A stretch of 64,000 bases of DNA, taken from positions 32,001 to 96,000 of the forward strand of contig CAVWBU010000031.1 in the NCBI GenBank assembly GCA_963753345.1, written 5' to 3'. Every line of letters begins with the position of its first letter. Position 1 is the stretch's first letter. The position numbers and the translations under genes were made by a program. This DNA comes from an uncultured Fibrobacterota bacterium (GTDB taxonomy: Bacteria > Fibrobacterota > Chitinivibrionia > Chitinivibrionales > FEN-1185). The notes beneath the pieces are model-generated. The model saw nothing but the letters and a program-made list of their open reading frames with translations. It did not search any database and was not told the DNA's origin. Positions 7,661 through 30,557 of the stretch are shown here, one piece after another.

Positions 7661-8151
7661 TGGTGGGGGCACCGCTTCGCGTTTCCCCCTGGCCCCAAGC
7701 CTCCTCGCCCTCCGGGCTGCGGGGTCTCGGGGCACACCCCCTCCTGCGAAGGGGCGCGCGATCGCGCTCGACTTGCGCTCGCGCGGCGTCGCCCGTTCAT
7801 GCTTCGCACCCTTCGGGCGCGCTTTGCGCGTGGTCTCCGCGCCTCTGGCGCTCCGGCTCGCAACGCAACCGCAGCGGTATGCCGCTTCGCGGCGATAGTG
7901 CATTCGGGCACAATCATCTTTGTTAATTTTCGTATGTCAATAATCTGCGAACATCCGAGCAAGCGCTTGTCCATTGCGCGTGCGTTAGGCCGGACTGGAG
8001 GCCACGCTGGAGCGCGGTGCTGCCTGACCACGGCCCGCAGGGCCCTCGTGGCAGGCAGCCCGAGGCCGAAGGCCGAGACCGTAAGGAGGGCCGACCCCGG
8101 TTATGTAGGGGCGTAGCGCGCTACACTCCTCCATAACCGGGGAAACGCCCA
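7661..8151 (+). repeat. Composite intergenic element: module A' (7661-~7895, containing module E 7795-7857) + module C (~7975-8151)
   Basis: Starts TGGTGGGGGCACCGCTTCGCGTTTCCCCCT and ends GGGGAAACGCCCA. A' matches the reverse complement of 51365-51522. Confidence 0.85.
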
Positions 8152-8184
8152 TTTTATTTGTTAGCTTGTCTAGCTTATCTAGTA

Positions 8185-8214
8185 TTGACTCGATTTCAGC
8201 TTGGAATGTATATT
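8185..8214 (+). promoter_or_regulatory. Possible sigma70 promoter for rplU-rpmA
   Basis: TTGACT-N18-TATATT upstream of AGGAG and the ATG at 8240. Confidence 0.4.
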
Positions 8215-8239
8215 GAAAGGCCTTCAAAGGAGTCGATTC

Positions 8240-9426: not shown

Positions 9427-10653
9427 TTATATATTTGTATTTCTATTTCGAAACAATAGCAGGTCTACTAGATACTGTGCCTTTTTGTAAAACGGTGTGT
9501 TGCGCCTTTTCTGGCCCGACATCCACTTGCTCCACGTGATATACGCGGTCATGGCGAAGCAGCCCGCCACGAAGAACATGATGCAGACGATTGAACGCTT
9601 GGGCCTGGTCTTTTTCTGCGGCGGCTGGGCGTACTCGAGCGCCTGGACGGCGGGCACGTCGTTCGATTCGGAGAATTTCGCCTGTTCGAACAGCTGAAGA
9701 ACGAATTCGTACAGCGATTCCTGGATCTTGACGTCCCGCAACAGGTACCCGTACTTCACCGATTTGGCCGGCGCGTCCTTGAGCGCAATGATGAGGTTCC
9801 CGCCGCCGGCAGCCATGTATTTCCCGATTTCCCTCCCGATGACTGCTTTCTGTTTCTGAAGCTCGGCGATCCGCTGGTTGCCGGAGCTGCCGTACTGGCT
9901 CTGCAGCTGGCTTATCTCAAGGTCGAGCGCCATTTTCTGCGCCTCGAACTGGGCGAGCGCCTCGACCGAGGATTTGGTCTGGTGTTCAAGGTCGATATAG
10001 TTGTTTTTGGTCTGGAATTCGGTGAGCCTCTGCGCGGCCGTGTCGAGGTCCTGCCTGATGAGGGCGAGCCGCTCCTCGAAAAAGACCCTCGAATTCCGCG
10101 CGCTCTCCTTTGCCAAGCAGTAGGTTATGGTGTCGAGTTCGAGCAGCATGAAGTTGGCGATGTCGGCGGCCATGCCCGGGCTCGAATCGGTCACCGCGAC
10201 CTCGATGTTGCCATAGTCGTTTTCAACGATTTTCGTGTTCCTGTGGAACGCCTTGAGAAGGTCTTCAATATAGTATTTCTTCATTTTGTTGAACCCGTAA
10301 TGGCGGACAAGGTCGAACCGGCGCAGCACGATCTCCGCCATGCGACGGCTTTCCAGAACGCTCAGAAAGTTGTCCGCATCGCTGCCGCCGCCAAGGTCCA
10401 TTGACTTGAGAATGCCGGAAACCGGAAGCTCCTTGGAAATCAGGGACCCGAGGCCGGGCATTTTCGGCGCAGGTTTCATGATGACGGCGGTCGCGGTGTA
10501 GTACCGGGGCATCAGAAGGCTTATCACAAGACCGGCCACGCAGAAAGCAACGACGCCGGCGACAAAGAGCCATTTCCGCTCAACCAGCACGATGAGCAGG
10601 TCGAGCAGGCCGGGACGGCCGGAATTTTCCATGGATGTGTTCTGCGTTTGCAT
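9427..10653 (-). CDS. Wzz/GumC-type polysaccharide chain-length determinant
   Basis: N- and C-terminal TM segments, central coiled coil, PPQKKTRPKR motif before the last TM. Confidence 0.8.
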   Translation of the reverse strand: MQTQNTSMENSGRPGLLDLLIVLVERKWLFVAGVVAFCVAGLVISLLMPRYYTATAVIMKPAPKMPGLGSLISKELPVSGILKSMDLGGGSDADNFLSVLESRRMAEIVLRRFDLVRHYGFNKMKKYYIEDLLKAFHRNTKIVENDYGNIEVAVTDSSPGMAADIANFMLLELDTITYCLAKESARNSRVFFEERLALIRQDLDTAAQRLTEFQTKNNYIDLEHQTKSSVEALAQFEAQKMALDLEISQLQSQYGSSGNQRIAELQKQKAVIGREIGKYMAAGGGNLIIALKDAPAKSVKYGYLLRDVKIQESLYEFVLQLFEQAKFSESNDVPAVQALEYAQPPQKKTRPKRSIVCIMFFVAGCFAMTAYITWSKWMSGQKRRNTPFYKKAQYLVDLLLFRNRNTNI

Positions 10654-10699
10654 GCTAAAAAAATATGTTATGACCGAAAGCCAATAAAAAATATATAGA

Positions 10700-11110
10700 T
10701 GGGGGAAGCCTCCCCCTCGCTTCAGCCCTCGCCTTCACTCGGTCTTCCGCTACCCCCTCCTGGGTAGCCGCCTTGACAAAGCAGATTCAAGACCATGCAT
10801 TGTTGTGGCGGCACCCACGAAGAGCGGTTGAAAAGTTGAAACGTTGAATAGTTGAACCGTTGAAAAGTGGAAAATGAAAAAAAAGAAATCCAACGGATTT
10901 ATTGCGAATGCTGGTGGCGCGAGAACAAGTAGTTGACAAAACACAATCCCTCTGCCGCGCGTTAGGTGGACCGGAGGGTGAGCGAGAGCGAATTGCCGGC
11001 CGACCCCGGCCGTAGGCCATCGGGGCGGTCCGGCAACGAGGCGAATAGCCGAGCCCGCAGGGAGACCGACCCCAGTGAGAGCCGCATGGCTCTCGCTGGG
11101 GTAACGCCCA
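10700..11110 (+). repeat. Composite element: module A (10700-~10825) + AGTTGAA-type heptamer run (~10828-10875) + module C (~10950-11110)
   Basis: TGGGGGAAGCCTCCCCCTCGC...GGCGGCACCCACG; ends GGGGTAACGCCCA. Confidence 0.9.
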
Positions 11111-11152
11111 ATATTATAAATAGTAGTACTCCATTGAGTATTTTTTATAATA

Positions 11153-12010
11153 ATGAAAATTACCTTCCTCGGCACCGGCACCTCGCACGGCGTGCCGTCC
11201 ATCGATTGCATGCTCCAGGGGTTCCGGTCGTGCCCGAAGGACGTGTGCAGGCGTTCCTTGACCGACGCGAAACACGCCCGCACCCGCTCGTCCATTCTTG
11301 CCGAGTACAACGGGAAGCGCGTGCTGGTCGATGTCTCCCCGGATTTCAGGCAGCAGGCGCTCCGGGAGAAAATTCCCGGCATCGACGCCGTGCTGATCAC
11401 GCACTGCCACGCCGACCATATCGGCGGCGTGCCGGATATTCGCTCCTACACGGCCCGGCGTCCGGAACCGCTCGAGTTCTACGGCTCGGAGGAGAGCATG
11501 GCCGCCATCCGCGCGTTTTTCCCCTATATATTCGACCCGGACGCGTTTTTCGGCGGCGGCATTCCGAAGATCGCGACAAAGGCCGTGACCGGAGCATTCG
11601 GCCTATTCGGAGCAACCGTGACGCCGGTCCCGGTGGAGCATGGCCGCCTGCGCGGCTGCCTGGGCTACCGCATTGACAACATGGCATACATCCCGGACGT
11701 CAAGGCGCTTCCGCGGGAGTCGCGGCCGTCCCTTGCGGGCCTGGACACGCTGGTGCTCAACTGCCTGCGGGAGACGCGGGACCATGCGAGCCACCTGGTG
11801 CTGGCCCAGAGCGTGGCGCTCGCCCGCGAACTCGCGCCGCGGCAATGCTATTTTATCCATATGAGCCACGATATCGACTATGAGACCGACGGAGCCAAGC
11901 TTGATAAGTGGATGGAATTTGCACCGGCACCTCGCACGGCGTGCCGTCCATCGATTGCATGCTCCAGGGGTTCCGGTCGTGCCCGAAGGACGTGTGCAGG
12001 CGTTCCTTGA
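11153..12010 (+). CDS. MBL-fold metallo-hydrolase (PhnP/YycJ-like), copy 1; native C terminus replaced by a frameshifted tail at the duplication junction
   Basis: LGTGTSHGVP, THCHADH zinc motif, HMSH. Confidence 0.85.
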   Translation: MKITFLGTGTSHGVPSIDCMLQGFRSCPKDVCRRSLTDAKHARTRSSILAEYNGKRVLVDVSPDFRQQALREKIPGIDAVLITHCHADHIGGVPDIRSYTARRPEPLEFYGSEESMAAIRAFFPYIFDPDAFFGGGIPKIATKAVTGAFGLFGATVTPVPVEHGRLRGCLGYRIDNMAYIPDVKALPRESRPSLAGLDTLVLNCLRETRDHASHLVLAQSVALARELAPRQCYFIHMSHDIDYETDGAKLDKWMEFAPAPRTACRPSIACSRGSGRARRTCAGVP

Positions 12011-12671
12011 CCGACGCGAAACACGCCCGCACCCGCTCGTCCATTCTTGCCGAGTACAACGGGAAGCGCGTGCTGGTCGATGTCTCCCCGGATTTTAGGC
12101 AGCAGGCGCTCCGGGAGAAAATTCCCGGCATCGACGCCGTGCTGATCACGCACTGCCACGCCGACCATATCGGCGGCGTGCCGGATATTCGCTCCTACAC
12201 GGCCCGGCGTCCGGAACCGCTCGAGTTCTACGGCTCGGAGGAGAGCATGGCCGCCATCCGCGCGTTTTTCCCCTATATATTCGACCCGGACGCGTTTTTC
12301 GGCGGCGGCATTCCGAAGATCGCGACAAAGGCCGTGACCGGAGCATTCGGCCTATTCGGAGCAACCGTGACGCCGGTCCCGGTGGAGCATGGCCGCCTGC
12401 GCGGCTGCCTGGGCTACCGCATTGACAACATGGCATACATCCCGGACGTCAAGGCGCTTCCGCGGGAGTCGCGGCCGTCCCTTGCGGGCCTGGACACGCT
12501 GGTGCTCAACTGCCTGCGGGAGACGCGGGACCATGCGAGCCACCTGGTGCTGGCCCAGAGCGTGGCGCTCGCCCGCGAACTCGCGCCGCGGCAATGCTAT
12601 TTTATCCATATGAGCCACGATATCGACTATGAGACCGACGGAGCCAAGCTTGATAAGTGGATGGAATTTGC
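11172..12671 (+). repeat. 749-bp direct tandem duplication (11172-11922 / 11921-12671)
   Basis: Copies identical by eye except C at 11347 vs T at 12096; GC microhomology at the junction. Confidence 0.95.
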
Positions 12672-12699
12672 GTATGATGGGTTGAAAATAAATATCTAG
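11908..12699 (+). CDS. MBL-fold metallo-hydrolase, copy 2, lacking the native first ~7 residues
   Basis: Identical to copy 1 from TGTSHG onward; carries the native end AYDGLKINI. Confidence 0.6.
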   Translation: MDGICTGTSHGVPSIDCMLQGFRSCPKDVCRRSLTDAKHARTRSSILAEYNGKRVLVDVSPDFRQQALREKIPGIDAVLITHCHADHIGGVPDIRSYTARRPEPLEFYGSEESMAAIRAFFPYIFDPDAFFGGGIPKIATKAVTGAFGLFGATVTPVPVEHGRLRGCLGYRIDNMAYIPDVKALPRESRPSLAGLDTLVLNCLRETRDHASHLVLAQSVALARELAPRQCYFIHMSHDIDYETDGAKLDKWMEFAYDGLKINI

Positions 12700-12711
12700 A
12701 AGAGTTTACAA

Positions 12712-13152
12712 GTGGGGGAAGTTTCCCCCTCGCTCCGGCCCTGCGGTCCTCCGCTACCCCCTCCTGGGTGCACCCCAAGTGGACGCGGCTGCAGAACCTG
12801 ACACATGTGCGGGGGCACCCACGAAAAGCTGTTGAAAAGTTGGACCGTTGAATAATTAAAAAAGTTGAGTGGTTGAAGAGCTGAGAATTCAAAATATAAA
12901 ATTGGCTGATTTGTTTGGGTCACCAATTGGCGCGAGAAGAAGCAATTGACTTAATAGATTCCCTCTGCCGCGCGCCAGGCCGGACTGGAAGGTGCGCTAT
13001 AGCGCATTGCCGGCTGACCGCGGCTCGAAGAGCCTTTGCGGCAGGCGGCAACGAGGCCGAAGGGCCGAGCCTGGAAGGAGGGCCGACGCTGCGAAGCAGC
13101 GGGGCGCCCAAGTGTTTATTTTGGTTTATTGACGAAGGCGGGGGAACGCCCA
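12712..13152 (+). repeat. Composite element: module A + heptamer run + module C (~12960-13110) + second C tail (13134-13152)
   Basis: GTGGGGGAAGTTTCCCCCTCGC start; GGGGCGCCCA end, followed by GAAGGCGGGGGAACGCCCA. Confidence 0.9.
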
Positions 13153-13187
13153 TATTCTTTACTAAGTGTTATGGAGGCTGGATAAGC

Positions 13188-13880
13188 ATGGAAAAGTACA
13201 AGCAGGAATTCATCGAATTCATGGTGCGTTCGAAGGCGTTGACTTTCGGGAGCTTCGTCACCAAGAGCGGCCGCACCACGCCGTACTTTGTCAACACGGG
13301 GAACTACACCACCGGCGGGCAGATGGCCAGGCTCGGCGAGTTCTACGCCGAGGCGATCCGCTCCAAGATCGGGGACGATTTCAACGTTCTGTTCGGTCCG
13401 GCGTACAAGGGGATCCCGCTCGCCGTGACCGCCGCGGCCGCACTGTACCGCCTGCACGGATTCGACGTTCCGGTCTGCTACAACCGGAAGGAGGCCAAGG
13501 ACCACGGCGAGGGGGGAAGCATTATCGGCCACCGGCCCGCCGCGGGCGACCGGGTGGTGATCGTCGACGACGTGATAACCGCCGGCACTTCGGTGAGGGA
13601 GTCCGCGGCGCTCCTTACGGCCGTGCCGGGCGTGGTGCTCCGCGGCCTGGCGGTGTCTGTTGACAGAATGGAAAAAGGCCCGTCCGGCGCAAGCGCGCTT
13701 TTTGAGGCGTCCCGCGCCTACGGCATGGACGCGATCGCCGTTGTTTCCATCGAGGACATTGTGTCGCACCTGCACGGCCGGACCGTTGATGGAACAGTGG
13801 TGATCGACGATGCCATGAAAGCGAAGATAGACGCTTACCGCGCCGAGTACGGCGCGGGGAAAAGAAAGTTGAGAAGTTGA
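13188..13880 (+). CDS. pyrE: Orotate phosphoribosyltransferase
   Basis: KSGRTTPYF, FGPAYKGIP, RKEAKDHGEGG, VVIVDDVITAGTS. Confidence 0.97.
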   Translation: MEKYKQEFIEFMVRSKALTFGSFVTKSGRTTPYFVNTGNYTTGGQMARLGEFYAEAIRSKIGDDFNVLFGPAYKGIPLAVTAAAALYRLHGFDVPVCYNRKEAKDHGEGGSIIGHRPAAGDRVVIVDDVITAGTSVRESAALLTAVPGVVLRGLAVSVDRMEKGPSGASALFEASRAYGMDAIAVVSIEDIVSHLHGRTVDGTVVIDDAMKAKIDAYRAEYGAGKRKLRS

Positions 13881-14040
13881 GTGGTTGAGGAGTTGAGAAG
13901 AAAATCAAGAATAAAAATATGGCCTATGAACCCATGAACCCTCTAATTCATCCACCCATGAACGCATTTACGCATCCACGCACCAACGCCCTAACGCACC
14001 CACGCATCCACGCATCCACGCATTCTCGCATCCAGGCACT
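13865..14040 (+). repeat. AGTTGAG heptamer run (13865-~13900) followed by an ACGCATCC-type octamer run (~13955-14040)
   Basis: Directly visible degenerate tandem units; the octamer run abuts the next ATG. Confidence 0.85.
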
Positions 14041-14622
14041 ATGAAGCGCGTCAACGAAAACCCACCGGCGAGGTTCCCTGAAAGGCCGATAGGCCAGGCC
14101 GGGGCGCCGTGGTGGATCGCAAAGGTGAGGCCGCGCCAGGAAAAAGCGCTCGCGTTCGATCTTGTCCGCAACAACATCGAATACTACCTGCCGATGGTCG
14201 TGCACGTCACGCGGCGCAGGGACAATAACAAACCGCGAAAGTCGGTGCTGCCGCTGTTTCCGGGGTACATCAGTTTTTGCGGCGGCGATCCCGAAGCCAG
14301 GGGCATTTACAGGACCGGAAGGGTCGTTTCCGTTATTCCCATAAAGTACCAGGAACGGTTCGTGCGCGAGCTTACCCAGGTCTATCAGGCGATTGAAACG
14401 GGCGTGGCCCTCGATCCGGTCGCCGCGCAGTATTCTCCCGGCGCCAGGGTCGCTGTTGTGACCGGGCCGCTTCGCGGTCTAACGGGCGTTATTGCAAGGA
14501 TCCAGGACGCAGACCGGCTCGTGCTTTCGGTGACAGGACTTGGCCACGCGTCCATGGTGATAGACGCCGCAATGGTAAAGCCCGTGGATGATCCGCACAA
14601 GCACCAAACCGAAATTCCCTGA
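14041..14622 (+). CDS. NusG-family specialised antiterminator (UpxY/RfaH/LoaP-like)
   Basis: WWIAKVRPRQEK, PLFPGYI NGN motif, C-terminal KOW VAVVTGPLRGLTGVI; upstream of polysaccharide genes. Confidence 0.85.
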   Translation: MKRVNENPPARFPERPIGQAGAPWWIAKVRPRQEKALAFDLVRNNIEYYLPMVVHVTRRRDNNKPRKSVLPLFPGYISFCGGDPEARGIYRTGRVVSVIPIKYQERFVRELTQVYQAIETGVALDPVAAQYSPGARVAVVTGPLRGLTGVIARIQDADRLVLSVTGLGHASMVIDAAMVKPVDDPHKHQTEIP

Positions 14623-14663
14623 CGCAAGGCACTGATTTTACGATTGAATCCCACAGCGAGTGC

Positions 14664-14756
14664 ATTCCCTGGAGCTTGCTCCGGGGTTAGCGAGCGACTA
14701 TAAGTATGTTTTCTTTCCATAGGGATGGAAGATTCCCCGCAGCTTGCTGCGGGGTT
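14664..14756. repeat. Doublet of 25-nt palindromic units ATTCCCNGNAGCTTGCTNCGGGGTT (14664-14688, 14732-14756)
   Basis: Two direct copies 68 nt apart, each a hairpin. Confidence 0.75.
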
Positions 14757-14898
14757 CTTCAAAAGAGACTGGATCGAATGTATTATTTTATATTGGTTGC
14801 GGTAACAGGTTGAGACAAAATGCGGTGATACCGATCTTTGGAAGCGGGCTTTTTTCAAAGTACCGCCGACGGGGGTGAGGTGTACCTGGAGAAATAAT

Positions 14899-15357
14899 AG
14901 TTGAGGAGTTGAGAGGTTGAGAAGTTGAGCAGTTGAAAAAAGAAGTTGAAACGTTGCTGGTTAGAGAAGGTTGTTCATGTGGGGGAAGTATCCCCCTCGC
15001 TTCAGCCCAGCCTTCGGCCGGTCTTCCGCTACCCCCTCTTGGGTGGCCCCCAAGTAAGTTGATTTGCGAGAAAGATGCATCGGTTAGGGGGCACCCATGG
15101 AGAGTAGTGGTATATAAAGAAGTTGAAAAGTTGAGAACCCCAAAAAACCTTGACTGATTTACTGCAGATGCCGGCTGGCGCGAGAAAAAGTAATTCACGG
15201 AATATGATCCTTCTACCGCGCGCCAGGCCGGACTGGAGGTCCCGCCAGAGCGGGATGCCGCCCGGACCCGGCCCTGTGGGCCATAGGGCCGTGGCGGCCC
15301 GAGGCCGGAGGCCGAGACCGGAAGGAGGGCCGCCGCCGCAAAGCGGCGGGGCGCCCA
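14899..15357 (+). repeat. Heptamer run (14899-~14955) + module A (14979-~15100) + module C (~15210-15357)
   Basis: GTGGGGGAAGTATCCCCCTCGC; ends GGGGCGCCCA. Confidence 0.9.
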
Positions 15358-15402
15358 AGTATTATTGATGTTTGTCTAAAATCTTTATCTTTGGATAACC
15401 CC

Positions 15403-16104
15403 ATGATCCTCTCTATTATTATCCCCTGCTACAACGAGAAGGGAACCATCCTCGCGCTGCTTGACAGAGTGCTTAAGGCGCCGCTGCCCGCCGGGGTTGA
15501 CCGCGAGGTGGTCGTGGTGGACGACTTCTCGGTCGACGGCACGCGCGACGCGCTCGCGGCAGTTTCGGACACGCGCGTGCGCGTCCTTTTGCACGACAGA
15601 AACCGCGGCAAGGGCGCCGCGCTGCGCACCGGATTCGCCGCTGCCACGGGCGGCATCGTGGTGGTGCAGGACGCGGACCTCGAGTACAACCCGGAGGAGT
15701 ACGCCAAACTGCTCAAGCCGATTCTGGACGGCAGGGCCGACGTCGTGTACGGCTCGCGGTTCATAACCACCGGCGAGCGCCGCGTGCTGTATTACTTCCA
15801 CTACATGGGAAACAGGTTTCTCACCTTTGCCTCCAACGTCTTCACGAACATGAACCTGAGCGACATGGAGACCTGCTACAAAATGTTCCGGAAGGAGATA
15901 CTTGACAAAATCCGCATCCGTGAAAACCGTTTCGGGTTCGAGCCGGAGATAACGGCCAAAATCGCGAAGCTCAAGTGCCGCGTGTACGAGGTGGGAATTT
16001 CATATTCCGGCCGCACCTATGAGGAGGGCAAGAAGATAGGGTTCCGGGACGGGCTGCGCGCGCTGTGGTGCATTGTGAAGTACAATGTGATTTCTCGGAA
16101 GTAA
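15403..16104 (+). CDS. Glycosyltransferase family 2 (DPM1-like)
   Basis: SIIIPCYNE, VVDDFSVDGT, NRGKG, QDADLEY, DMETCYK. Confidence 0.92.
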   Translation: MILSIIIPCYNEKGTILALLDRVLKAPLPAGVDREVVVVDDFSVDGTRDALAAVSDTRVRVLLHDRNRGKGAALRTGFAAATGGIVVVQDADLEYNPEEYAKLLKPILDGRADVVYGSRFITTGERRVLYYFHYMGNRFLTFASNVFTNMNLSDMETCYKMFRKEILDKIRIRENRFGFEPEITAKIAKLKCRVYEVGISYSGRTYEEGKKIGFRDGLRALWCIVKYNVISRK

Positions 16105-16127
16105 ATAGTATGATGCTTTTCCTTGCA

Positions 16128-16573
16128 CCGACAAAGCTCAACAGTTCTCGGGGGCTTCACCCCCGAACCCCGACCAAGGGGTGGTCAGCAGCAACCACCC
16201 CTTGGAACCCCATGCCGCGCCTGCAGCGCCGCCTGGTCCCTCGGCCTTCGGGCCGCTCGTGAACTCACCCGGCAGGACAAACCTAAAGCTTGATCAAATA
16301 TGCCGGGCTCGGACAGCACGAGCGGCCAATCCTTCGACCTCAGGGGCGTCGCTGATGGCGGCAGATACAAACAATGCAGCTCAAATTCGCGCAAGCGGTT
16401 TTCTACACTTTGGCGATGTTCTTCTGCCCAGCGTTAGGTGGACCGGAGTGGTCCCGCCGTAGCGGGATTGCCGGCCGACCCCTCCCCGAAGGGGACTCGG
16501 GGCGGTCCGGCAACGAGGCCGAACGGCCGAGCCCGTAGGGAGACCGACCCGGCCGGAGGCCGGGGAACGCCCA
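16128..16573 (+). repeat. Composite element: module D + module C (~16421-16573)
   Basis: Similar to 8910-9419. Confidence 0.85.
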
Positions 16574-16592
16574 CTCCATCTTGTAGATCATA

Positions 16593-17240
16593 ATGAAAAC
16601 GAAAATCCGTATAACGTTGGGAATCCTTCTCCTGATTTGCATTACGCTGCTGGTACTAGCCTATCGACACCTCGGCATGTGGCTCGTGGCGTCGGACCCG
16701 CTGCCGCCGTCGCTCGACGCGTACTTTACCTTTGCAAGCGACAACGAGCGCATCATCTACTCCAAGCACCTTTACAAAAGATACCCCGCCGCGCTGTGGG
16801 TGCTGAGCTACCCGCGGAAACGGATACTCGTTCCGCTCCGCAAGGCGGGCCTCGACACGTCGAGGATCGTCGTGATAGACACCTGCGCCAACACATCGTC
16901 GGAGGTGGCCTGCATCGTGAACTGGGCCAACAGCGCGCTGCGCGACAGCGCCTCGGCCCCGGCGCGCAAGCTTGCGGCGAAAACCAAATTTTCTCCCGGG
17001 AGCACGCTCAGGATAGGTCTGGTGAGTTCGCCCTACCACATGCGCCGCATCAAAGTGCTCTTTTCGGGCAGGCGACCGGACACAAGGGCCGAGTTCCTGT
17101 TTCTGCCCGTTCCGTTCTGGCTATGCGGCATGAAGAAGAGCGATTACGAAACGTGGTGGAAAAACAAGGCGCTCGCGCCCGTGGTGTGGGTGGAGGTTGA
17201 GAAGATTGCGTATCTTTTGTGGTGCGGGCTATGGGGGTAA
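16593..17240 (+). CDS. YdcF/DUF218-like membrane-anchored protein
   Basis: N-terminal TM, NTxxE motif, LVSSPYHMRR. Confidence 0.65.
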   Translation: MKTKIRITLGILLLICITLLVLAYRHLGMWLVASDPLPPSLDAYFTFASDNERIIYSKHLYKRYPAALWVLSYPRKRILVPLRKAGLDTSRIVVIDTCANTSSEVACIVNWANSALRDSASAPARKLAAKTKFSPGSTLRIGLVSSPYHMRRIKVLFSGRRPDTRAEFLFLPVPFWLCGMKKSDYETWWKNKALAPVVWVEVEKIAYLLWCGLWG

Positions 17241-17261
17241 GATTTCTAATAATATATGAAT

Positions 17262-17711
17262 CTGGGCGCCCCGCCGCTTCACAAGATAGAAGAGTTTCTT
17301 GTGGGGGAAGTATCCCCCTCGCTCCGGCCGCCTTTGGCGTCCTGCGCTACCCCCTCTTGGGTGACCCCCTTGACGGAGCGGTTGTTGAACCACACACTTG
17401 TGTGGGGGCACCCACGGAGAATAGTTGAGAGGTTGAGAAGTTGAGGGGGTTGAGAAGGCACGGAAAAAATACTGATTGATGTTTAGAGTATTCCGATTGG
17501 CGAGAATAAATAGTTGACTTATAGTATTTCTTCTACCGCGCGTTAGGGGCGACTGGAAAAATGGTCCCGCTTGAGGCGGGATGCCGCCCGGACTCTTAAT
17601 TGTAGATTTTAGATTGATGATTGCAGATTGATAAAAAGACCCGATTGCTTTCTTTGTTTTGCAATCTACATTCTACAATCTGCATTCTACAATTAAGTGG
17701 GGGAACGCCCA
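17262..17711 (+). repeat. Inverted C-tail stub (17262-17280) + module A (17301-~17416) + heptamer run + module C interrupted by an inverted-heptamer insert (17595-17697)
   Basis: C 5' half 17530-17594 matches 9266-9327; C tail GGGGGAACGCCCA at 17699-17711. Confidence 0.85.
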
Positions 17712-17749
17712 ATTTTCTTGTCTTTAACAAGAATTGGAGAAAACCAAAA

Positions 17750-18523
17750 ATGCCCAAGATTTTGAAAAGAAACAGATGTTATGGCTGGAAACCGGATTTT
17801 CCCGACCATCGCGACGTGAAATTCTCCCTTGTGTACCGCGTGCCGGCGAAGCTGCCCGCAAAAACAGACCTGCGCGCAATCTGCCCGCCGGTGGAAGACC
17901 AGGGACAGCTCGGCAGCTGCACGGCCCACGCGCTCACCGGCGCGCTGGAGACGCTCGAAAACAAGGACAGATTACCGCTTGTCCAGATGAGCAGGCTCTT
18001 TGTCTACTACAACGAGCGAAGCCTGGAGCATACCGTTTCGCAGGACGCGGGCGCCATGATCCGCGACGGCATCAAGACCCTTGCGAAACAGGGCTGCTGC
18101 GCGGAAAGCAAGTGGCCCTATGTTATATCGAAATTCGCGTCCAAGCCAGGGGCGGCCTGCTTCAAGGACGGCCTGGAACACCAGATCACGTCGTACCAGC
18201 GCATAGCCACCGTTGACCAGATGCGTGCGTGCCTCGCCGCGGGCTTTCCCTTTGTGTTCGGGTTCACCGTGTACGAGTCGTTCGAATCGCAGGCCGTGGC
18301 GAAAACCGGCACGGTGAACATGCCCAAGAAGACCGAGGCTACGCTCGGCGGCCACGCCGTGCTCGCCGTGGGCTACGACGACAAGGCAAAGCGCTTTACG
18401 GTGAGGAATTCCTGGGGACCGGGGTGGGGAATCAAGGGGTATTTCACTATTCCTTATGCTTACCTTGCGAGTCGGGACCTGGCAGATGATTTCTGGACGA
18501 TAAGAAGAGGAGAGAGAATATAA
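17750..18523 (+). CDS. Papain-like (C1A) cysteine peptidase
   Basis: DQGQLGSCTA (catalytic Cys), GGHAV (His), VRNSWG (Asn). Confidence 0.93.
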   Translation: MPKILKRNRCYGWKPDFPDHRDVKFSLVYRVPAKLPAKTDLRAICPPVEDQGQLGSCTAHALTGALETLENKDRLPLVQMSRLFVYYNERSLEHTVSQDAGAMIRDGIKTLAKQGCCAESKWPYVISKFASKPGAACFKDGLEHQITSYQRIATVDQMRACLAAGFPFVFGFTVYESFESQAVAKTGTVNMPKKTEATLGGHAVLAVGYDDKAKRFTVRNSWGPGWGIKGYFTIPYAYLASRDLADDFWTIRRGERI

Positions 18524-18545
18524 AATTGATAGAAAGTAGATTTGG

Positions 18546-18850
18546 TGGGGGAAGTATCCCCCTCGCTTCAGCCCTCGCTTTTGCTCGGTCTTCCGGCGCT
18601 TTCCGCCCTTGCTGTTGGGCGGGCGCTCCCCCTCCCGGGTGGCCGCCTTGACAATGCAGCTGCAAGACCATACATTGTTGTGGCGGCACCCACGAGGAGC
18701 AGCTGAAAAGTTGAATAGTTGAAAATGAAAAAGTTGAGGAGTTGAGAAGACAAGAGTTGAAGAGTTGAATAGTTTAATAGTTGAAGAGCAAAAAGGTTTA
18801 GAAGTTGAGCAGTTGAGAAGTTGAGAAGAGAAAAAGTTGAAAAGTTCAAG
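18546..18850 (+). repeat. Module A (18546-~18700) + long AGTTGA(A/G) heptamer array (~18700-18850)
   Basis: GTGGGGGAAGTATCCCCCTCGC...GGCGGCACCCACG, then ~20 degenerate heptamers. Confidence 0.9.
18648..18676 (+). promoter_or_regulatory. Sigma70-like promoter inside module A
   Basis: TTGACA-N17-TACATT; related spacing in other A copies. Confidence 0.45.
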
Positions 18851-20475: not shown

Positions 20476-21303
20476 ATGACCACCACACCCCAAACCATCA
20501 TCCGCCCGTCGTCGAAGATCGGTTTCTTTGACGTACGGGAAATATGGCGGTATCGCGAGCTGCTGTACATGCTCGCGGTGCGGGACATCCAGCTTCGCTA
20601 CAAGCAGACCGCGTTCGGCGTGGTGTGGGCCGTTCTGCAGCCGCTGCTCCCTGCGATTATCTTTGCCGTTATTTTCGGCATGTTCGCCAAGCTCCCCAGC
20701 AACGGCAGCCCGTACCTGCTCTTTGTCTTTACCGGCACCATGATCTGGAACCTTTTTTCCCAGTCCATTTCCAGGGCGGGCAACAGCCTTGTGGGCAATG
20801 CCGCCCTTATTTCCAAGGTGTATTTCCCGAGAATGGTTGTTCCTCTGTCAAGCATCGGCGCGGTCATCTTCGATTTTCTCATCACCGCGGTCCTCCTGGT
20901 TGCATTCATGGTCCTGTATAAGACGCCTCCCACCATGAACCTGGTTTTCTTTCCGCTTTTCATTCTGCTCGCGCTCGTGACGGCGGTCGGCATAAGCCTG
21001 TGGCTTTCGGCCCTCAATGTAAAGTACCGGGACTTCATGTACGCCATGCCGTTCCTTGTGCAAGTATGGCTCTATGCAACGCCGGTGGTCTACGCGTCGA
21101 GCCTCGTTCCGCAAAAATTCCGATGGATCTACAGCATCAATCCGGCCGTTGGATTTGTTGAAGGGTTCCGCTGGTCGGTGCTGGGCAAAGGCACGCTCAC
21201 CCCCGCAATGCTCATTATTTCGTCAAGCATCGCGATTGTGGCGCTGGTTTCGGGCCTTATTTATTTCAAAAGCACGGAGCGGAATTTTGCGGATGTCATA
21301 TAA
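20476..21303 (+). CDS. wzm: Polysaccharide ABC transporter permease
   Basis: LRYKQTAFGVVWAVLQP, KVYFPR, six TM segments. Confidence 0.92.
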   Translation: MTTTPQTIIRPSSKIGFFDVREIWRYRELLYMLAVRDIQLRYKQTAFGVVWAVLQPLLPAIIFAVIFGMFAKLPSNGSPYLLFVFTGTMIWNLFSQSISRAGNSLVGNAALISKVYFPRMVVPLSSIGAVIFDFLITAVLLVAFMVLYKTPPTMNLVFFPLFILLALVTAVGISLWLSALNVKYRDFMYAMPFLVQVWLYATPVVYASSLVPQKFRWIYSINPAVGFVEGFRWSVLGKGTLTPAMLIISSSIAIVALVSGLIYFKSTERNFADVI

Positions 21304-21304
21304 A

Positions 21305-21416
21305 AAAGTAACAAAGTAACAAAGTGACAAAGTGAAAAAGAGGCAAAGTTACAGAGTGAAAAAGTGACAAAGTGACAAAGTGAAAAAGAGACAAAGTGAC
21401 AGAGTTACAAAGTATA
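21305..21416 (+). repeat. 14 tandem degenerate octamers, consensus AAAGTGAC
   Basis: Exact 8-nt periodicity between wzm and wzt. Confidence 0.92.
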
Positions 21417-21439
21417 AAAACGTGAACGCATAGGACACA

Positions 21440-22724
21440 ATGAACGATTTTGCCATCCGCGCGGAAAAACTGTCCAAATCCTATCAGATCCGGCATGCCG
21501 GCGCCAAGCCTGCGTATCAAACCCTGCAGGAGAGCCTTCTTTCCCTGCCCAAAAGGATCCTTGGCAGAAAGGAAACTGTCGAGACGTTCTGGGCGCTCAA
21601 GGACGTTTCATTTGAAATAAAGCAGGGAGAGCGGGTCGGCATCATCGGCAGGAACGGCGCGGGCAAATCCACCCTGCTCAAATTGCTCAGCAAAATAACC
21701 GAGCCGACCTCGGGCCAGGCGATCATAAATGGGCCGAGTGGCAAGTTTGCTTGAAGTGGGCACCGGCTTTCATCCTGAATTAACAGGCCGCGAAAACATT
21801 TTCATGAATGGCGCAATTCTGGGAATGACAAGGGCGGAAATAAAAAAGAAATTCGATGAAATCGTGGCGTTCGCGGAAGTGGAAAGATTCGTCGACACGC
21901 CGGTAAAACGGTATTCGAGCGGGATGTACGTGCGGCTGGCGTTTGCGGTGGCGGCGCATCTGGAGCCGGAAATATTACTGGTTGACGAGGTGCTGGCAGT
22001 GGGGGATGCGCAGTTTCAGAAGAAATGTTTGGGGAAGATGGAAGACGTAAGCAAGAAGGAAGGAAGAACCGTGCTTTTTGTGAGCCATAATATGGCCGCC
22101 GTGAGCCAGATTTGCACCAAAGGAATAGTTCTGAGCAGCGGGACGGTCCATTTTAGCGGATCTCAGGAACATGCGATCCAAGATTATTCAAAGAGTAACC
22201 AAACCGTAACTGCCAGCCTCAGAAATAGAACGGACCGAAAAGGATCAGGCGAAATACGTATTACCGGGATAGACATACTTGATGAAAATCGAGAGAAAAT
22301 TGACTATATTAAATCGGGCCAGAATATTCAAATCGTTTTTCATTATGAAACATCCGGCAGAAAAACTTTTTCAAACGTACTGATGAGTTTTCTCATAAAA
22401 ACGCCAGTAGGCGTGTCTGTTTTTTTGCAACACAACAGGTTAACAAATTTTGATTTTGGTGAATTACCCGAAAGAGGATCCTTCGTTTGCAGAATTCCGC
22501 ACTTGCCCTTGCCGCCATCGGTATACAATTTGATTTACACCATTCTGCCTGCTTATGGATCGCAGGAGGACTATTATGACTCAATGGACAATGCAATCTC
22601 ACTAAACGTCATTAGTGGGGACTATTTTAAGACGGGAGAAGTTCCTCCAAGCACCCATGGCGTCTGCTTGGTAGACGCAACATGGGAACTCGCAAAAGAT
22701 ATTCAAGAGAAAACCATAGCATGA
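21440..22724 (+). CDS. wzt: Polysaccharide ABC transporter ATP-binding protein with C-terminal Wzt domain; frameshift near 21734
   Basis: Walker A GRNGAGKS in 21440..21754; YSSGM and LLVDEVL in 21729..22724. Confidence 0.9.
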
Positions 22725-23473
22725 ACTCAATGGCCAAAATAGTCAGACGCGCGCTTGTCCGCGCTTTCCGTTTTTTCAACCCTTCTCACTACTGCGACCC
22801 CGGTTATGTCGAGAAGAAAGAATACATTTTCTATGTTAATTTCCTTAAAGACAAGATGACTGTTTTTGACATTGGCGCCAATATTGGGGAGCTTTCGTTA
22901 TTGTTTTCCAAATTTATTTCGCCAAACGGTGTCTTGCACTGCTTTGAGCCGACCCCGCAAACATTTGACAAATTGAAATCCACAGTAACTCTGGCAAACC
23001 GGGCAAACGTTATCCTCAATAACATCGCCGTTTCGAATGAAATAGGCGAAATAACGTTCAATGTTTATGACGACAAGCACAGTACCTTCAATACGATTGC
23101 CAACCGGCCGCTCGAAAAATACGGCATTCAGGATGTGCATTCAAAAAAGACGACAGTAATGGCGACGACTATTGATAATTATTGCGGGAAAAACAAAATC
23201 GACCAGATCGACCTTCTTAAAATAGATGTGGAAGGGGCCGAATATCAGGTCCTGCTTGGTGGAAAGAAGATGTTTTTGGAAAAAAGAATCAAATGCTGCA
23301 TATTTGAGTTTGGACAAACAATTTACGATATGGGAAACAAACCCCAGGACCTCATTCGGTTTTTTGATGAAGTTGGCTATACGCTCAGGAACATAGTCAA
23401 AAATGCTCCATTATTCCCGCACGACAGAAACAAGATCGCCCTATTCTCGATGCTTCATGCAATGCCACAATAA
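22721..23473 (+). CDS. FkbM-family methyltransferase
   Basis: [21 protein letters not shown]. Confidence 0.9.
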
Positions 23474-23475
23474 AA

Positions 23476-24220
23476 ATGTCAAACAATCCATTCGTTAGGC
23501 TAATCAAAGGAATCCGGAGGCGCTACAAGAAGTATGCAAGCGACAGAGAGCGGCTTTCCACCTTTTATAAACAACTCAAACATTACAATTTTATTGCCGA
23601 TGCAGAACACCGTGCCGAGAGGCGGTATCTCTATCCCTGTCTCTATGATTCCACTCAAGAAACCGAAATCGAGCCCATATATTTTTATCAGGACGTATGG
23701 GCCTTTGAGCGCATTTTCAATAATAGACCTGCGACGCACGTTGATATCGGATCACATCACAAGTTTGTTGCATTTTTGTCCAAGATAACAAAACTAACCA
23801 TGATCGATGTCAGGCCACTTTCCCTCAAGTTAGATTCCATTAATTTTACTGAAGGCACCATATTGGATCTTCCTTTTAAAGACAATAGCATTGAATCCAT
23901 CTCAAGTTTATGTGTGATTGAACACATAGGTTTGGGCAGATATGGAGATCCGCTGGATCCGTTAGGCTCAGAGAAGGCTATCTCTGAAATCACGAGAGTT
24001 CTAGGGAAAGATGCTCATCTTTATTTATCTGCACCTGTGAGTGATAAGATTTCCGTTTATTTTAATGCAGGCAGAATATTTGCTTGGAGTACCTTATGAA
24101 GTTGCTAAAGGATTACAAATAGCCAGAAAAGATTTTATCGTCAACAAAAGCCTAACGGATATTTTTGCACCTAATGATTATTTTCAAACAACTATCCTGC
24201 TGGATTTAGTAAAGAATTGA
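23476..24220 (+). CDS. DUF268-like SAM-dependent methyltransferase; apparent frameshift(s) near the 3' end, end approximate
   Basis: YFYQDVWA, HVDIGS, SLCVIEHIGLGRYGDPLDP. Confidence 0.75.
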
Positions 24221-24221
24221 C

Positions 24222-25032
24222 ATGAATGTCGAACTAGAAATACTGTCGAAAATTCCTCTATTACTCCATGCTTATGACCGTAAGAGGAAAGGTGTTGCTA
24301 TTGACATCGGCGTCGGCACGGGAAATTTTCATTGTGAAGCATTTAGACGCGCCGGATACAAGTCATACGCGGTTGAGCCGCTGCCGTCGCAACGATTAAA
24401 AGGCATATGCAAGAAACTGAGGATAAATCTGTATGAATCCTGTATCTGTGATTTTGATGGAACAGTAGATATCTTTTCAGGCCGCTTTAATGGTAATGAT
24501 TGCAGTGACGTGTCTTCGATTAAGAGAGATTGGTGGGGGATTGATGACAAAAGCAGGAAGATCAGCGTAAGGGCCACCACGCTCACAGAATTATTGCACA
24601 GGTTCGAAATCAAGAAAATCACCTACATGAAAATTGATACTGAAGGCTCCGAAAAGGACATTATCAAGCAATTTGTCAACCTACAAAAGAGTGAACTTCC
24701 TGAAATAGTGGAATTTGAATATGGAGGCGGCGCAAGCAAAAAAGAAAACAAGGCGGGCTGGTCGCAGGAATATTTTTCCCAGACGCTGAATGCATAAATA
24801 TTTTGAAATCGCTCGGCTACTCGTATGCCGTTTTGTTCGAAGGGGACTGCCGGGGCCGGTTGAGTTCAATTTGCCAGGGGAAGCGTGCTTGGAATTCAAG
24901 GATGAGTTTGTCTACGGGGATATGGTTTTTTTTAAAGACAAGAAAATTGATATGGCCACGTTGCTAAACTACCAAAAACCTCCAACTATTGGTGAAAGAA
25001 CAAGAACACTGGTCAAACGATTCCTGAAATGA
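24222..25032 (+). CDS. FkbM-like methyltransferase, probably frameshifted near 24795
   Basis: IDIGVG, AVEP, MKIDTEGSE; likely continues in ORF 24790..25032. Confidence 0.7.
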
Positions 25033-25876
25033 TCGCAATAAAATTACAAGGCAGGCTTGGAAATCAAATGTTCCAGTATGCCTTTGCAGAATATGTTTCC
25101 AGCAAATTTTCCGTGTCTTTTTTCTTTGACGCCACGACGTATTCCTTTCTATTGCCCAGGTATTTCAAAGTAAAAAAGCTTCCAACCCTGCTCACCGGAA
25201 TATACAGTAATAAGTTGTTTCGTTATGGGAGAAAATTGGTTAATAGACATTTTATAAGGAATCGGGCTGTGCAGGTGGGAAAAAACGATCCACAGGAATT
25301 ATTGCGCACTTTAAGCAACTGGACACGCTATGAGATTTATTGCCAATCATATGATTGCTTTAGGTCAGTGGAGAATTCAATAAGAAATACATTCCAAATA
25401 AAGAAGGAATATGTAAGACAGTTCAAGGGTAAGTATCAGACTTTGTTTGAGAAGAGTAAAACTATTGTTGCTCATTTTCGAGGAGGTGATTACTTTGATT
25501 GGGGTGACGACAATTTAGGAGGAAAAAACCCTACTTTGCCTTTATCATTCTATGCAAATTGCTTCAATAAGATAGAAAACATCGGACAATATCAAATCAT
25601 CTTTGTGAGCGATTCAATTTCGTATGTTAAAAGGTATTTCGGTGAAAACAATAACTGTCAATACGAATCAAATTCTGAAATAGTAGATTTCCAAATTTTA
25701 CTGAACGCCGATATTGTAATTGCTTCCAACAGCAGTTTTGCCTGGTGGGGGGCCTTCTTGAATCTGAAAAGGGCTCAGGTGTATGCACCTGAATATTGGT
25801 TCAGTCAAAAATAAAGAAGGAATATCCTGTAGGAATTTTAAGGAACCTCAATTGGAATATTATACCGGTTGAATAA
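25029..25876 (+). CDS. GT11 alpha-1,2-fucosyltransferase-like protein; frameshift near 25805
   Basis: GRLGNQMFQYA, HFRGGDY, SNSSFAWWGA. Confidence 0.88.
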
Positions 25877-25903
25877 TCGAATAGCTAAGTTCAGCCAAAC
25901 GGA

Positions 25904-27677: not shown

Positions 27678-27685
27678 GGAAAAAA

Positions 27686-30551: not shown

Positions 30552-30557
30552 AACAAG

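What the first reader, a model, noticed from the sequence alone, without database searches (positions are those of the whole stretch)
12712..13152. cGNAg triloop polarity suggests the elements fold as single-stranded DNA, with A and C on opposite strands
Seen: in module C, read toward GAACGCCCA, hairpin caps are mostly C-GNA-G (ggccGAAggcc, ggccGGAggcc, cccGCAggg, cccGTAggg, gcGAAgc). In the adjacent module A/A' on the same strand they read C-TNC-G (gcTTCgc, ggccTTCggcc, cccTCCggg), which is GNA on the other strand. Module E follows the polarity of whichever module hosts it. Established: cGNAg triloops such as d(GCGAAGC) are exceptionally stable in DNA, whereas RNA favours GNRA/UUCG tetraloops. 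Inference: a protein that recognises folded ssDNA, as with HUH transposase ends, REPs or integron attC sites, acts on both ends.
Basis: partly seen in the sequence, partly recalled or inferred. Interest (0 to 1): 0.76.

Follow-up and report, generated by a model that had tools for sequence, protein, structure and literature searches.

The report
Strand-polarised hairpin repeats between genes
The gap between two ordinary genes holds one copy of a two-part folded repeat found hundreds of times in this genome; its small hairpin caps follow the grammar of unusually stable DNA hairpins and sit on opposite strands in the two parts, which hints at, but does not prove, a single-stranded DNA form.

Summary
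Window 12712-13152 is one copy of a composite intergenic repeat: module A, then GTTGANNN octamers, then module C. It lies between a metallo-beta-lactamase-fold gene and a pyrE-like gene.

Genome-wide counts:
- 227 C copies carry 347 C-GNA-G triloop hairpins against 14 C-TNC-G on the strand read toward GGGGAACGCCCA.
- 200 A copies carry 0 against 73 on that strand.
- Hairpins flanked by tandem G.A mismatches are 503 against 8 in C.
- The nested E insert always follows its host's polarity.

- For a DNA-level, strand-specific element: GNRA and UNCG loops are rare, C faces gene starts and gene ends about equally, no promoter is conserved, there are no target-site duplications, and occupancy varies among congeners.
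- Against the ssDNA/HUH reading: this genome shows no Y1 transposase, reverse transcriptase or TnpB. There is no clear replication-strand bias. Composition-controlled folding energies do not differ between strands. Wobble counts are uninformative. C's closed multi-helix shape looks RNA-like. No RNA data could be obtained.
- The case for A rests on one or two hairpin positions.

The scan had already found this repeat family in other windows of the same genome. I file it as a new variant of REP/BIME-type repeats, mechanism open.

The parts
11908..12699 (+). Upstream flanking gene, metallo-beta-lactamase fold; stop codon TAG at 12697-12699
   Evidence: Pfam Lactamase_B_2, E 1.8e-36; ORF list
12712..12823 (+). 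Module A. Holds the A5 hairpin GGGGGA-AGTT-TCCCCC (12714-12729), ACCC-CCTCCT-GGGT (12756-12769), and a long hairpin GGGTGCACCCC...GGGGGCACCC (12766-12820). Ends GGCACCCACG (12814-12823). Its GNA-type polarity lies on the minus strand.
   Evidence: Sequence; repeat families D3, D11, D14; 211 A5 anchors in the genome; folds
12831..12887 (+). Tract of GTTGANNN octamers (GTTGAAAA, GTTGGACC, GTTGAATA, then GTTGAGTG, GTTGAAGA, GCTGAGAA)
   Evidence: Sequence; family D1. The same octamers occupy the otherwise empty orthologous gap in congener G002.
12888..12927 (+). AT-rich spacer. One sigma-70-like match spans 12873-12902 in this copy; such sites are not conserved across copies.
   Evidence: Promoter-like sites point into C in only 28 of 227 copies, with no positional cluster.
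12928..12979 (+). Conserved box TGGCGCGAGAAGAAGCAATTGACTTAATAGATTCCCTCTGCCGCGCGCCAGG. TGGCGCG (12928-12934) is complementary to CGCGCCA (12971-12977).
   Evidence: Family D12; consensus of the 60 nt upstream of C
12972..13110 (+). Module C core. P1 is GCGCC (12972-12976) paired with GGCGC (13103-13107), followed by CCA. P2 is 12993-13006 (loop TATA). P5 is 13022-13034 (triloop GAA). P6 is 13055-13066. P7 is 13070-13078. P8 is GCTGC-GAA-GCAGC (13088-13100).
   Evidence: Sequence; DNA fold, z -2.95; 12 window copies give 27 consensus pairs, 13 with compensatory changes; subfamily alignments
13111..13152 (+). Tail of this C variant, ending in the family's 3' landmark GGGGGAACGCCCA (13140-13152)
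   Evidence: Family D18; 267 C3 anchors in the genome
13188..13880 (+). Downstream flanking gene, pyrE-like phosphoribosyltransferase. Its start lies 36 nt after the C3 end.
   Evidence: Pfam Pribosyltran, E 1.2e-12. Gene order is conserved in 4 congeners.

Best explanation
The region is one copy of a composite, non-coding interspersed repeat (module A, GTTGANNN octamers, module C). The repeat has colonised gaps between genes in this genus.

Shown. Module C is a strand-specific single-strand fold. The strand that runs from the centre to the outer end GGGGAACGCCCA carries C-G-closed GNA triloops and CGAG/CGAG tandem G.A mismatches. The few triloops of module A, and the E inserts in its terminal loop, have the same grammar on the other strand. 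So both 'designed' strands run 5' to 3' from the centre outwards.

Inferred. This grammar is kept because the form that is recognised or copied when the element spreads is single-stranded DNA, in the manner of REP/BIME/REPIN-type repeats. It is not kept because each copy makes a functional RNA. The enzyme is unknown. Effects of individual copies on mRNA, such as stabilising or insulating hairpins in either orientation, would be secondary.
For: - Polarity: C has 347 GNA against 14 TNC triloops; A has 0 against 73; both far outside shuffles.
- Tandem-G.A-flanked hairpins in C: 503 forward against 8 reverse. P6 has tandem G.A in 168 of 174 cells.
- G and A of the loop are fixed while N takes all four bases.
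- The closing pair is C-G in 347 of 372 GNA triloops.
- RNA-type loops are rare: GNRA 30 and UNCG 3 of 1183.
- A review states that the DNA form is far more stable than the RNA form and occurs at ssDNA initiation sites (PMC13037366, passages).
- C is not tied to transcription: its outer end faces a gene start in 102 copies and a gene end in 108. In the window this is 8 against 6, and eight of the flanking genes involved (counting the two that flank this copy) are confirmed by Pfam.
- There is no conserved promoter: sites point into C in 28 of 227 copies and into A-reverse in 3 of 199.
- Mobile-type behaviour: the orthologous MBL-pyrE gap is about 50 nt with no module in G002 and about 95 nt in G003. 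It holds a mini-C in G005 and a different arrangement in G004.
- Flanks of 96 composites share no target-site duplication (mean longest shared string 4.61 against 4.47 for unrelated flanks).
- E sits in one orientation relative to host polarity at at least 4 distinct sites.
Against: - No Y1 (HUH) transposase, no RVT_1 and no TnpB were found in this genome, which is 94% complete; there is one IS110-type gene.
- Y1 genes in congeners are patchy: G002 has 8 matches, G004 has 2, G005 has 2 weak ones, and G001 and G003 have none.
- G002's IS200-like copies have unrelated end hairpins.
- Orientation against local GC skew is weak: C 129:98, A 108:92.
- Composition-controlled z-scores do not differ between strands: DNA, C -3.23 against -3.18; DNA, A -2.75 against -2.91; RNA, A -2.25 against -2.17. 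The raw energy asymmetry is therefore largely a composition effect.
- G.T against A.C mismatches in consensus helices show no strand preference. Subfamily 4 has 30 against 23 sporadic cases and 12 against 10 at covarying pairs. Subfamily 7 has 34 against 66.
- C is a closed 7-8-helix junction of 150-190 nt with purine-rich joints, which is more typical of RNAs than of known ssDNA recognition hairpins.
- Tandem G.A in A is 29 forward against 10 reverse.
- Composites in same-direction gene gaps favour the gene-sense orientation, 34 to 12. That points to some transcription-linked selection.
Confidence: 0.4

Rival explanations
1. The functional form is RNA. C-forward, and possibly A-reverse, is a structured non-coding RNA or mRNA element. 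The purine-rich loops and tandem G.A pairs would then be RNA tertiary or protein-binding motifs.
For: - C has a closing helix P1 that covaries (GCGTT/AACGC against GCGCC/GGCGC), several nested helices with compensatory changes, and purine-rich junctions.
- A T-rich tract follows the C3 end.
- In G002 the orthologous gap is about 50 nt with no promoter, so in G000 the element probably sits inside a transcription unit and is transcribed.
- Composites favour gene-sense orientation 34:12.
- From my own recall, tandem G.A pairs are also stable in RNA.
Against: - Half of the C copies are antisense to the neighbouring gene (108 of 210).
- No conserved sigma-70-type promoter: 28 of 227 for C, 3 of 199 for A-reverse.
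- Two thirds of A copies (126 of 186) have the 'wrong' strand in gene sense.
- No excess of G.U-type over A.C-type mismatches.
- GNRA and UNCG loops are scarce.
- No Rfam match at gathering score in the window, and none below E = 3 in the region.
- No terminator-like site in the region.
Confidence: 0.3
2. The polarity is inherited history and does not reflect a present single-strand function. A few ancestral hairpins happened to carry GNA caps, and the copies are young. A's TNC caps come from a P6-like hairpin of C that was captured in inverted orientation.
For: - Copies are close relatives and mismatches in stems are few and symmetric.
- The only A-C similarities are short and all inverted: 8 matches in 5 of 200 A copies, mapping to the P6 region of C.
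- A's signal rests on 1-2 hairpin positions.
- Neither strand of this copy's A folds better than shuffles (z -0.56 and 0.03 as DNA, -0.87 and -0.80 as RNA).
Against: - Within one loop position all four middle bases occur while G and A stay fixed in 85 of 87 copies.
- Stems of P5 and P8 differ in sequence between copies but keep the pairing and the GNA caps.
- The tandem G.A motif recurs at three separate helices on the same strand.
- E keeps one orientation at several independent sites.
- The modules are as well conserved between congeners as the genes are: 80-92% for module matches against 64-86% for gene matches.
Confidence: 0.2
3. The modules act as double-stranded DNA: protein-binding sites, or cruciforms extruded from supercoiled DNA.
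For: Both strands fold significantly better than shuffles (z about -2.2 to -3.2 on either strand). From my own recall, REP/BIME elements bind IHF, gyrase and Pol I as duplex DNA.
Against: A duplex or cruciform function gives no reason for all caps and all G.A mismatches of a module to sit on the same strand (347:14 and 503:8). Tandem G.A on one strand means T.C/C.T on the other.
Confidence: 0.05

Closest known systems
REP / BIME elements and REPIN-RAYT systems (Enterobacteria, Pseudomonas)
   Same: High-copy, GC-rich, hairpin-forming extragenic repeats. Units sit in opposite orientation around a spacer. They are found between genes and inside operons, and occupancy varies between relatives. 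Abstracts in the listing (PMC3337134, PMC2817692, PMC3479197) describe REPs as stem-loops cleaved by RAYT Y1 transposases, and REPINs as two inverted REPs with a spacer.
   Different: Here the units are two different modules of about 110 and 150-190 nt with many helices, not 20-40 nt hairpins. A and C are not inverted copies of each other and do not pair. No RAYT was found in this genome. An oriented octamer tract sits between the modules.
IS200/IS605 transposon ends and their non-autonomous derivatives
   Same: A strand-specific fold is the inferred recognition feature. There is no target-site duplication. A partly conserved sequence precedes the left end: TGGT in 50 of 200 copies.
   Different: From my own recall, both end hairpins of IS200/IS605 lie on the same strand. 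Here the polarity is opposite. No TnpA or TnpB was found in the genome. A congener's IS200-like ends are unrelated in sequence.
DNA mini-hairpins d(GCGNAGC) at single-strand initiation signals (phage G4 origin, RSF1010 ssiA, phage N4 promoters)
   Same: C-G-closed GNA caps on short GC stems, including CCGAAGG- and GCGAAGC-type sequences. The motif is much more stable as DNA than as RNA (PMC13037366, passages).
   Different: Those are single functional sites on phage or plasmid ssDNA. Here there are several caps per module and hundreds of chromosomal modules, with no known primase or polymerase partner.
BOX elements of Streptococcus pneumoniae (boxA-boxB(n)-boxC), Correia and ERIC-type repeats (recalled, not searched)
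   Same: Modular build with two different end modules around a tandemly repeated middle unit. Located between genes and predicted to fold stably.
   Different: No sequence relation was tested. The GNA and tandem-G.A grammar and the nested E insert are, as far as I recall, not described for them.

Membership tests
REP/BIME | Hundreds of extragenic copies per genome | tested here: met
   211 A5 and 267 C3 anchors. Modules lie next to gene ends, at median distances of 24-118 nt.
REP/BIME | The unit is one short imperfect palindrome (about 20-40 nt) | tested here: not met
   A has a median length of 134 nt and C of 154 nt. C has 27 consensus pairs in several helices.
REPIN-RAYT | Two inverted copies of the same REP that can pair into one long hairpin | tested here: not met
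   Only 8 short inverted matches (16-24 nt), in 5 of 200 A copies, against all C copies.
REPIN-RAYT | A cognate Y1 (RAYT) transposase gene in the genome | tested here: not met
   PF01797 gives 0 matches in G000, which is 94% complete. The family is patchy in congeners. Absence from a draft genome is not proof.
IS200/IS605-derived element | End hairpins on the same strand | tested here: not met
   The GNA polarity of A is opposite to that of C. The feature itself is recalled from memory.
IS200/IS605-derived element | No target-site duplication; insertion next to a fixed short sequence | tested here: inconclusive
   No duplication was found. The left flank is only partly conserved (TGGT in 50 of 200). 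No closely related empty site was available to fix the junction.
DDE-type MITE | Terminal inverted repeats plus target-site duplication | tested here: not met
   The longest shared string between flanks is 4.61 observed against 4.47 for the null. The ends share only a short TCCCC(C)TCGC-like stretch, judged by eye.
Catalogued structured RNA (Rfam 15) | Match to a family model | tested here: not met
   No match at gathering score in 64 kb. Only one chance-level match (E 3.2) in 12650-13250.
Independent small-RNA gene | Own promoter at a fixed distance, and a terminator | tested here: not met
   Sigma-70-like sites point into C in 28 of 227 copies, with scattered positions. No terminator-like site in the region. 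Other promoter types were not covered.
Integron attC | Bottom-strand fold with R/L boxes beside gene cassettes and an IntI integrase | not tested
   The context is ordinary housekeeping and polysaccharide genes. No integrase search was run.

The most novel reading that the evidence does not exclude
A chromosomal repeat family whose working form is folded single-stranded DNA, built from sheared-G.A 'mini-hairpin' grammar. Its two end modules fold on opposite strands, so that each 3' end of the unit is a fold-back structure. It would be copied or cut by an enzyme that is not a Y1 transposase, for example a priming, rolling-hairpin or otherwise unknown strand-specific system. The 27-nt E insert would be a tiny rider that uses the same machinery.
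Probability: 0.2. Interest if true: 0.85.

Novelty: new variant of a known kind. Interest (0 to 1): 0.55.

Why it matters
How bacterial interspersed repeats spread and persist is understood only for REP/RAYT-type elements. This family has very clear strand-specific sequence rules: C-G-closed GNA caps, CGAG tandem G.A pairs and an oriented nested insert. Those rules predict which strand should be probed and what should be pulled down. If the folded form is DNA, the family would show that complex multi-helix ssDNA structures, not just single hairpins, can serve as recognition units of genomic elements. It would also point to an unidentified enzyme in Fibrobacterota. If the folded form is RNA, the family would be a large uncatalogued RNA with unusual loop usage. 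Either way the rules give a simple test.

Tried and rejected
- RNA evidence. For window 10600-18600 no RNA holder was listed, so no reads were laid.
- Earlier scan notes looked up by words, by sequence and by nearby place gave nothing further.
- Strand-neutral hairpin and helix callers that accept G.T and A.C alike picked many spurious helices. Their totals were discarded in favour of hand-checked helices.
- In one search I dropped three columns before the sporadic count. One is a G.T fixed in 79 of 81 copies. Two are columns where two subvariants are misaligned.
- The raw energy difference between strands looked supportive. It vanished against each strand's own shuffles (100 of 200 A copies and 70 of 227 C copies sampled).
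- The duplex-energy test of cis A:C pairing timed out and was not repeated. The BLAST comparison answers the same question more coarsely.
- Target-site duplication search: none found.
- Replication-strand bias by local coding GC skew was weak, and the skew signal itself is weak (mean absolute value 0.02).
- A search for an autonomous master copy (A and C ends 0.7-6 kb apart) found only ordinary genes between them.
- A literature search for Chitinivibrio together with REP, REPIN or intergenic-repeat terms listed no paper on this lineage. I found no description of this family in that library. Supplements were not consulted.
- C-GNA-G hairpins inside coding regions show no sense/antisense bias (364 against 355).

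Full report
WHAT IS AT THE COORDINATES

Window 12700-13187 is the gap between a metallo-beta-lactamase-fold gene (11908-12699, +) and a pyrE-like phosphoribosyltransferase gene (13188-13880, +). The finding's span, 12712-13152, matches one copy of a composite repeat:
- Module A, 12712-12823. It starts with the hairpin GGGGGA-AGTT-TCCCCC and ends GGCACCCACG.
- A tract of GTTGANNN octamers, 12831-12887.
- An AT-rich spacer.
- A conserved box, TGGCGCG...TTGAC...CCGCGCGCCAGG, 12928-12979.
- Module C, 12972-13152, ending GGGGGAACGCCCA.

The window holds many further copies on both strands. The genome is 4.52 Mb in 55 contigs with 55.9% GC. It holds 211 A5 anchors and 267 C3 anchors. From these I extracted 200 A and 227 C copies. 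A is followed by C within 700 nt on the same strand in 105 of 180 cases, at a median distance of 432 nt.

Earlier notes of this scan describe the same repeat family in other windows of this genome and place the organism in uncultured Chitinivibrionales (Fibrobacterota). I did not test the taxon label.

I counted every 3-nt loop closed by at least 3 Watson-Crick pairs.
- C copies have 347 C-GNA-G and 14 C-TNC-G on the strand read toward GGGGAACGCCCA, among 911 such hairpins.
- A copies have 0 and 73 among 470.
- In 100 dinucleotide shuffles the means were 31 and 8 for C and 6 and 11 for A. No shuffle reached the observed excess.
- Minimum-free-energy folds give the same picture: in C-forward, 183 of 302 triloops are C-GNA-G.
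- The closing pair of GNA triloops in C is C-G in 347 cases, G-C in 8 and A/T in 17.
- At one loop position, P7 of subfamily 7 (87 copies), the loop is GGA 39, GAA 21, GCA 19, GTA 6 and other 2. G and A are held while the middle base is free.

Hairpins flanked by tandem G.A/A.G mismatches in a CGAG...CGAG frame number 503 on C-forward against 8 on C-reverse. In P6 the two mismatches occupy 168 of 174 cells. In P2 they replace two Watson-Crick pairs in 50 of 87 copies.

The nested 27-nt insert E (68 copies) follows its host's polarity. All 33 inside the extracted C copies lie on C-forward. Eight sit in the A5 terminal loop, all on A-reverse. None is reversed. E always follows ...GA and shows no duplication.

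Limits of the observation:
- Copies share descent, so the independent units are roughly five hairpin positions in C and one or two in A.
- Some loops are not GNA. P5 is TGT in 26 of 81 copies of subfamily 4, and P6 of subfamily 7 is a pentaloop.
- In this particular copy, module A shows only a weak C-TGC-G.

MODULE C IS A REAL, CONSERVED FOLD

Two main subfamilies (99 and 91 sequences by clustering) share these features:
- A closing helix P1. GCGTT/AACGC switches to GCGCC/GGCGC in the variant present at 12972-13107.
- Helices P2-P8, with 13 covarying pairs among 39 in subfamily 4.
- In 12 window copies, 13 of 27 pairs carry compensatory changes.

This copy of C folds better than its shuffles on both strands as DNA (z -2.95 and -2.80). 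This copy of A does not (z -0.56 and 0.03 as DNA, -0.87 and -0.80 as RNA). Across samples, both modules fold better than shuffles on both strands (z -2.2 to -3.2).

WHICH STRAND, AND RNA OR DNA?

Raw folding energies favoured C-forward (199 of 227 as RNA, 204 of 227 as DNA) and A-reverse (124 of 200 as RNA, 157 of 200 as DNA). Measured against each strand's own dinucleotide shuffles, the difference disappears:
- DNA, C: -3.23 against -3.18.
- DNA, A: -2.75 against -2.91.
- RNA, A: -2.25 against -2.17.
None of these is significant. The polarity therefore lies in the motif grammar, not in predicted energy.

G.T against A.C mismatches in hand-checked helices give no strand signal:
- Subfamily 4: 30 against 23 sporadic cases, and 12 against 10 at covarying pairs.
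- Subfamily 7: 34 against 66.
Mismatches are rare, so this test has little power. It does show none of the G.U tolerance usual in RNA families.

RNA-type loops are scarce in C-forward: GNRA 30, UNCG 3 and CUUG 6 of 1183 candidate tetraloop hairpins. Passages of a 2026 review state that RNA versions of the mini-hairpin melt far lower than the DNA versions. The review places the motif at ssDNA initiation sites: the phage G4 origin, RSF1010 ssiA with CCGAAGG, and the N4 promoter (PMC13037366).

RELATION TO GENES

I used my own codon-model gene caller and checked it by Pfam for eight window genes.
- The outer end of C faces a gene start in 102 copies and a gene end in 108.
- The outer end of A faces a gene end in 126 copies and a gene start in 60.
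- In the window, four reverse-oriented C copies (39738, 41552, 43224, 47100) sit directly after the stop codons of confirmed plus-strand genes.
- Composites occur in convergent, divergent and same-direction gaps. In same-direction gaps they favour gene sense, 34 to 12.
- Sigma-70-like promoter sites point into C in only 28 of 227 copies and into A-reverse in 3 of 199, at scattered positions.
- No terminator-like site lies in the region.
- There are no Rfam matches and no tRNA or tmRNA genes.

The modules therefore do not look like RNA genes with their own signals. For two thirds of the A copies, the strand with GNA grammar is the one not expected in mRNA.

MOBILITY-TYPE BEHAVIOUR

The gene order around the finding is kept in four congeners. 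The MBL-pyrE gap differs among them:
- G002: about 50 nt, holding only octamers and no promoter, so probably one operon.
- G003: about 95 nt with no repeat.
- G005: about 170 nt with a reduced C.
- G004: about 1 kb with a reversed C, what by eye looks like a transposase remnant, and a forward C.

Across six neighbouring gaps the occupancy differs in every genome, and G003 has none.

Flanks of 96 composites share no direct repeat beyond chance. The left flank tends to AAAAATTTTTTGGT and the right flank is T-rich.

A and C are not inverted copies of each other. There are only 8 short matches, all inverted, in 5 of 200 A copies, and they map to the P6 region of C. A long A:C fold-back of the REPIN type is therefore not supported. 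The same result raises the possibility that A's TNC caps derive from a captured P6-like hairpin.

THE ENZYME QUESTION

This genome is 94% complete. It has no match to Y1_Tnp, RVT_1 or the TnpB zinc-ribbon domain, and one IS110-type gene. In 30 relatives Y1 genes are common but patchy:
- G002: 8 matches, six of them identical 144-aa copies.
- G004: 2 matches.
- G005: 2 weak matches.
- G001 and G003: none.

G002's 549-nt IS200-like unit has end hairpins unrelated to A and C. Orientation against local coding GC skew is weak (C 129:98, A 108:92). No RNA run could be listed for this DNA, so expression remains untested.

VERDICT

The polarity is real, strong for C and thinner for A. It shows that the modules are built for a strand-specific single-stranded form, with the two designed strands both running outward from the centre.

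Several features fit best with a DNA-level element whose recognised or copied form is single-stranded DNA (confidence 0.4):
- the sheared-G.A grammar,
- the scarcity of RNA-type loops,
- independence from the sense of transcription,
- the lack of promoters,
- the lack of target duplications,
- the turnover among congeners.

The RNA reading (0.3) keeps weight for three reasons. C's architecture is RNA-like. Many copies must be co-transcribed. No ssDNA-acting enzyme or replication bias was found. Inherited history without a current function (0.2) and duplex or cruciform function (0.05) remain possible.

The HUH analogy as stated is not supported for this genome. The nearest known kind is the REP/BIME/REPIN group, from which this family differs in size, in having two distinct modules, in the oriented octamer tract and in the absence of a RAYT.

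Noticed in passing
window 12831-12887, 13868-13899, 14900-14939, 18710-18827 and others; L003 (G002) MBL-pyrE gap: GTTGANNN octamer arrays. Each unit holds a TGA, and the 8-nt period puts a stop codon into all three frames after three units. Arrays sit at or over gene ends: the pyrE stop lies inside one, and in G002 the MBL reading frame ends inside one. They are kept at the pyrE-g6 gap in G000, G004 and G002 even where no A or C module is present.
   Followed up: partly
window 11172-11471 and 11921-12220: Two 300-nt stretches are 100% identical and 749 nt apart. One search shows a 751-nt, 100% match just upstream of the MBL gene. This is either a tandem duplication of most of that gene or an assembly artefact.
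   Followed up: no
genome-wide; in the window, e.g. the reverse-strand C copy at 41552-41720: A nested insert E of about 27 nt (CGACCCTTGGAAGYACCCGAMGGGGTR), 68 copies. It always follows ...GA in a single-stranded joint of a host module, shows no duplication, and sits in one orientation relative to host polarity. It is also found in a third host repeat (CCCTCTCC...GAGAGGGG).
   Followed up: partly
window about 17590-17700 (the C copy ending at 17711); other contigs: An AT-rich long palindrome (TTAATTGTAGATTTTAGATTGATGATTG...CAATCTACATTCTACAAT...) replaces the inner helices of some C copies.
   Followed up: no
window 21291-21434; 13950-14035; L013/L014 g1-g2 gap: Other short tandem units fill gaps in this genus: AGTGACAA-type octamers, CACGCATC-type units upstream of the gene at 14041, and CACAGAGA-type arrays forming long inverted repeats in G004 and G002. 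Congener G003 has plain AT-rich gaps.
   Followed up: no
L013 (G004) MBL-pyrE gap: Between a reversed and a forward C copy lies a stretch that, read by eye, encodes the C-terminal part of an IS4/IS5-type transposase. I did not check this with a search.
   Followed up: no
L017, L018 (G002): A 549-nt IS200-like unit with a 144-aa Y1 transposase, six identical gene copies in that genome. Its end hairpins are CCCCAGACTCCAGTCTGGGG and GCCGCCGACTCCTGTCGGCGG.
   Followed up: yes
window about 21700-33000: A run of plus-strand reading frames has much lower third-position GC (0.38-0.50) than the neighbouring genes (0.7-0.85). This suggests an acquired gene block. My gene model scores most of it poorly.
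   Followed up: no
window 8180-8215 and the orthologous gaps in L013-L016: A promoter-like TTGACT-N17/18-TGTATATT is conserved upstream of the gene at 8240 in all five congeners. This shows that E. coli-type promoters are used in this lineage. The C copy at 7979-8151 lies upstream of this promoter, so it is not in that gene's leader.
   Followed up: partly
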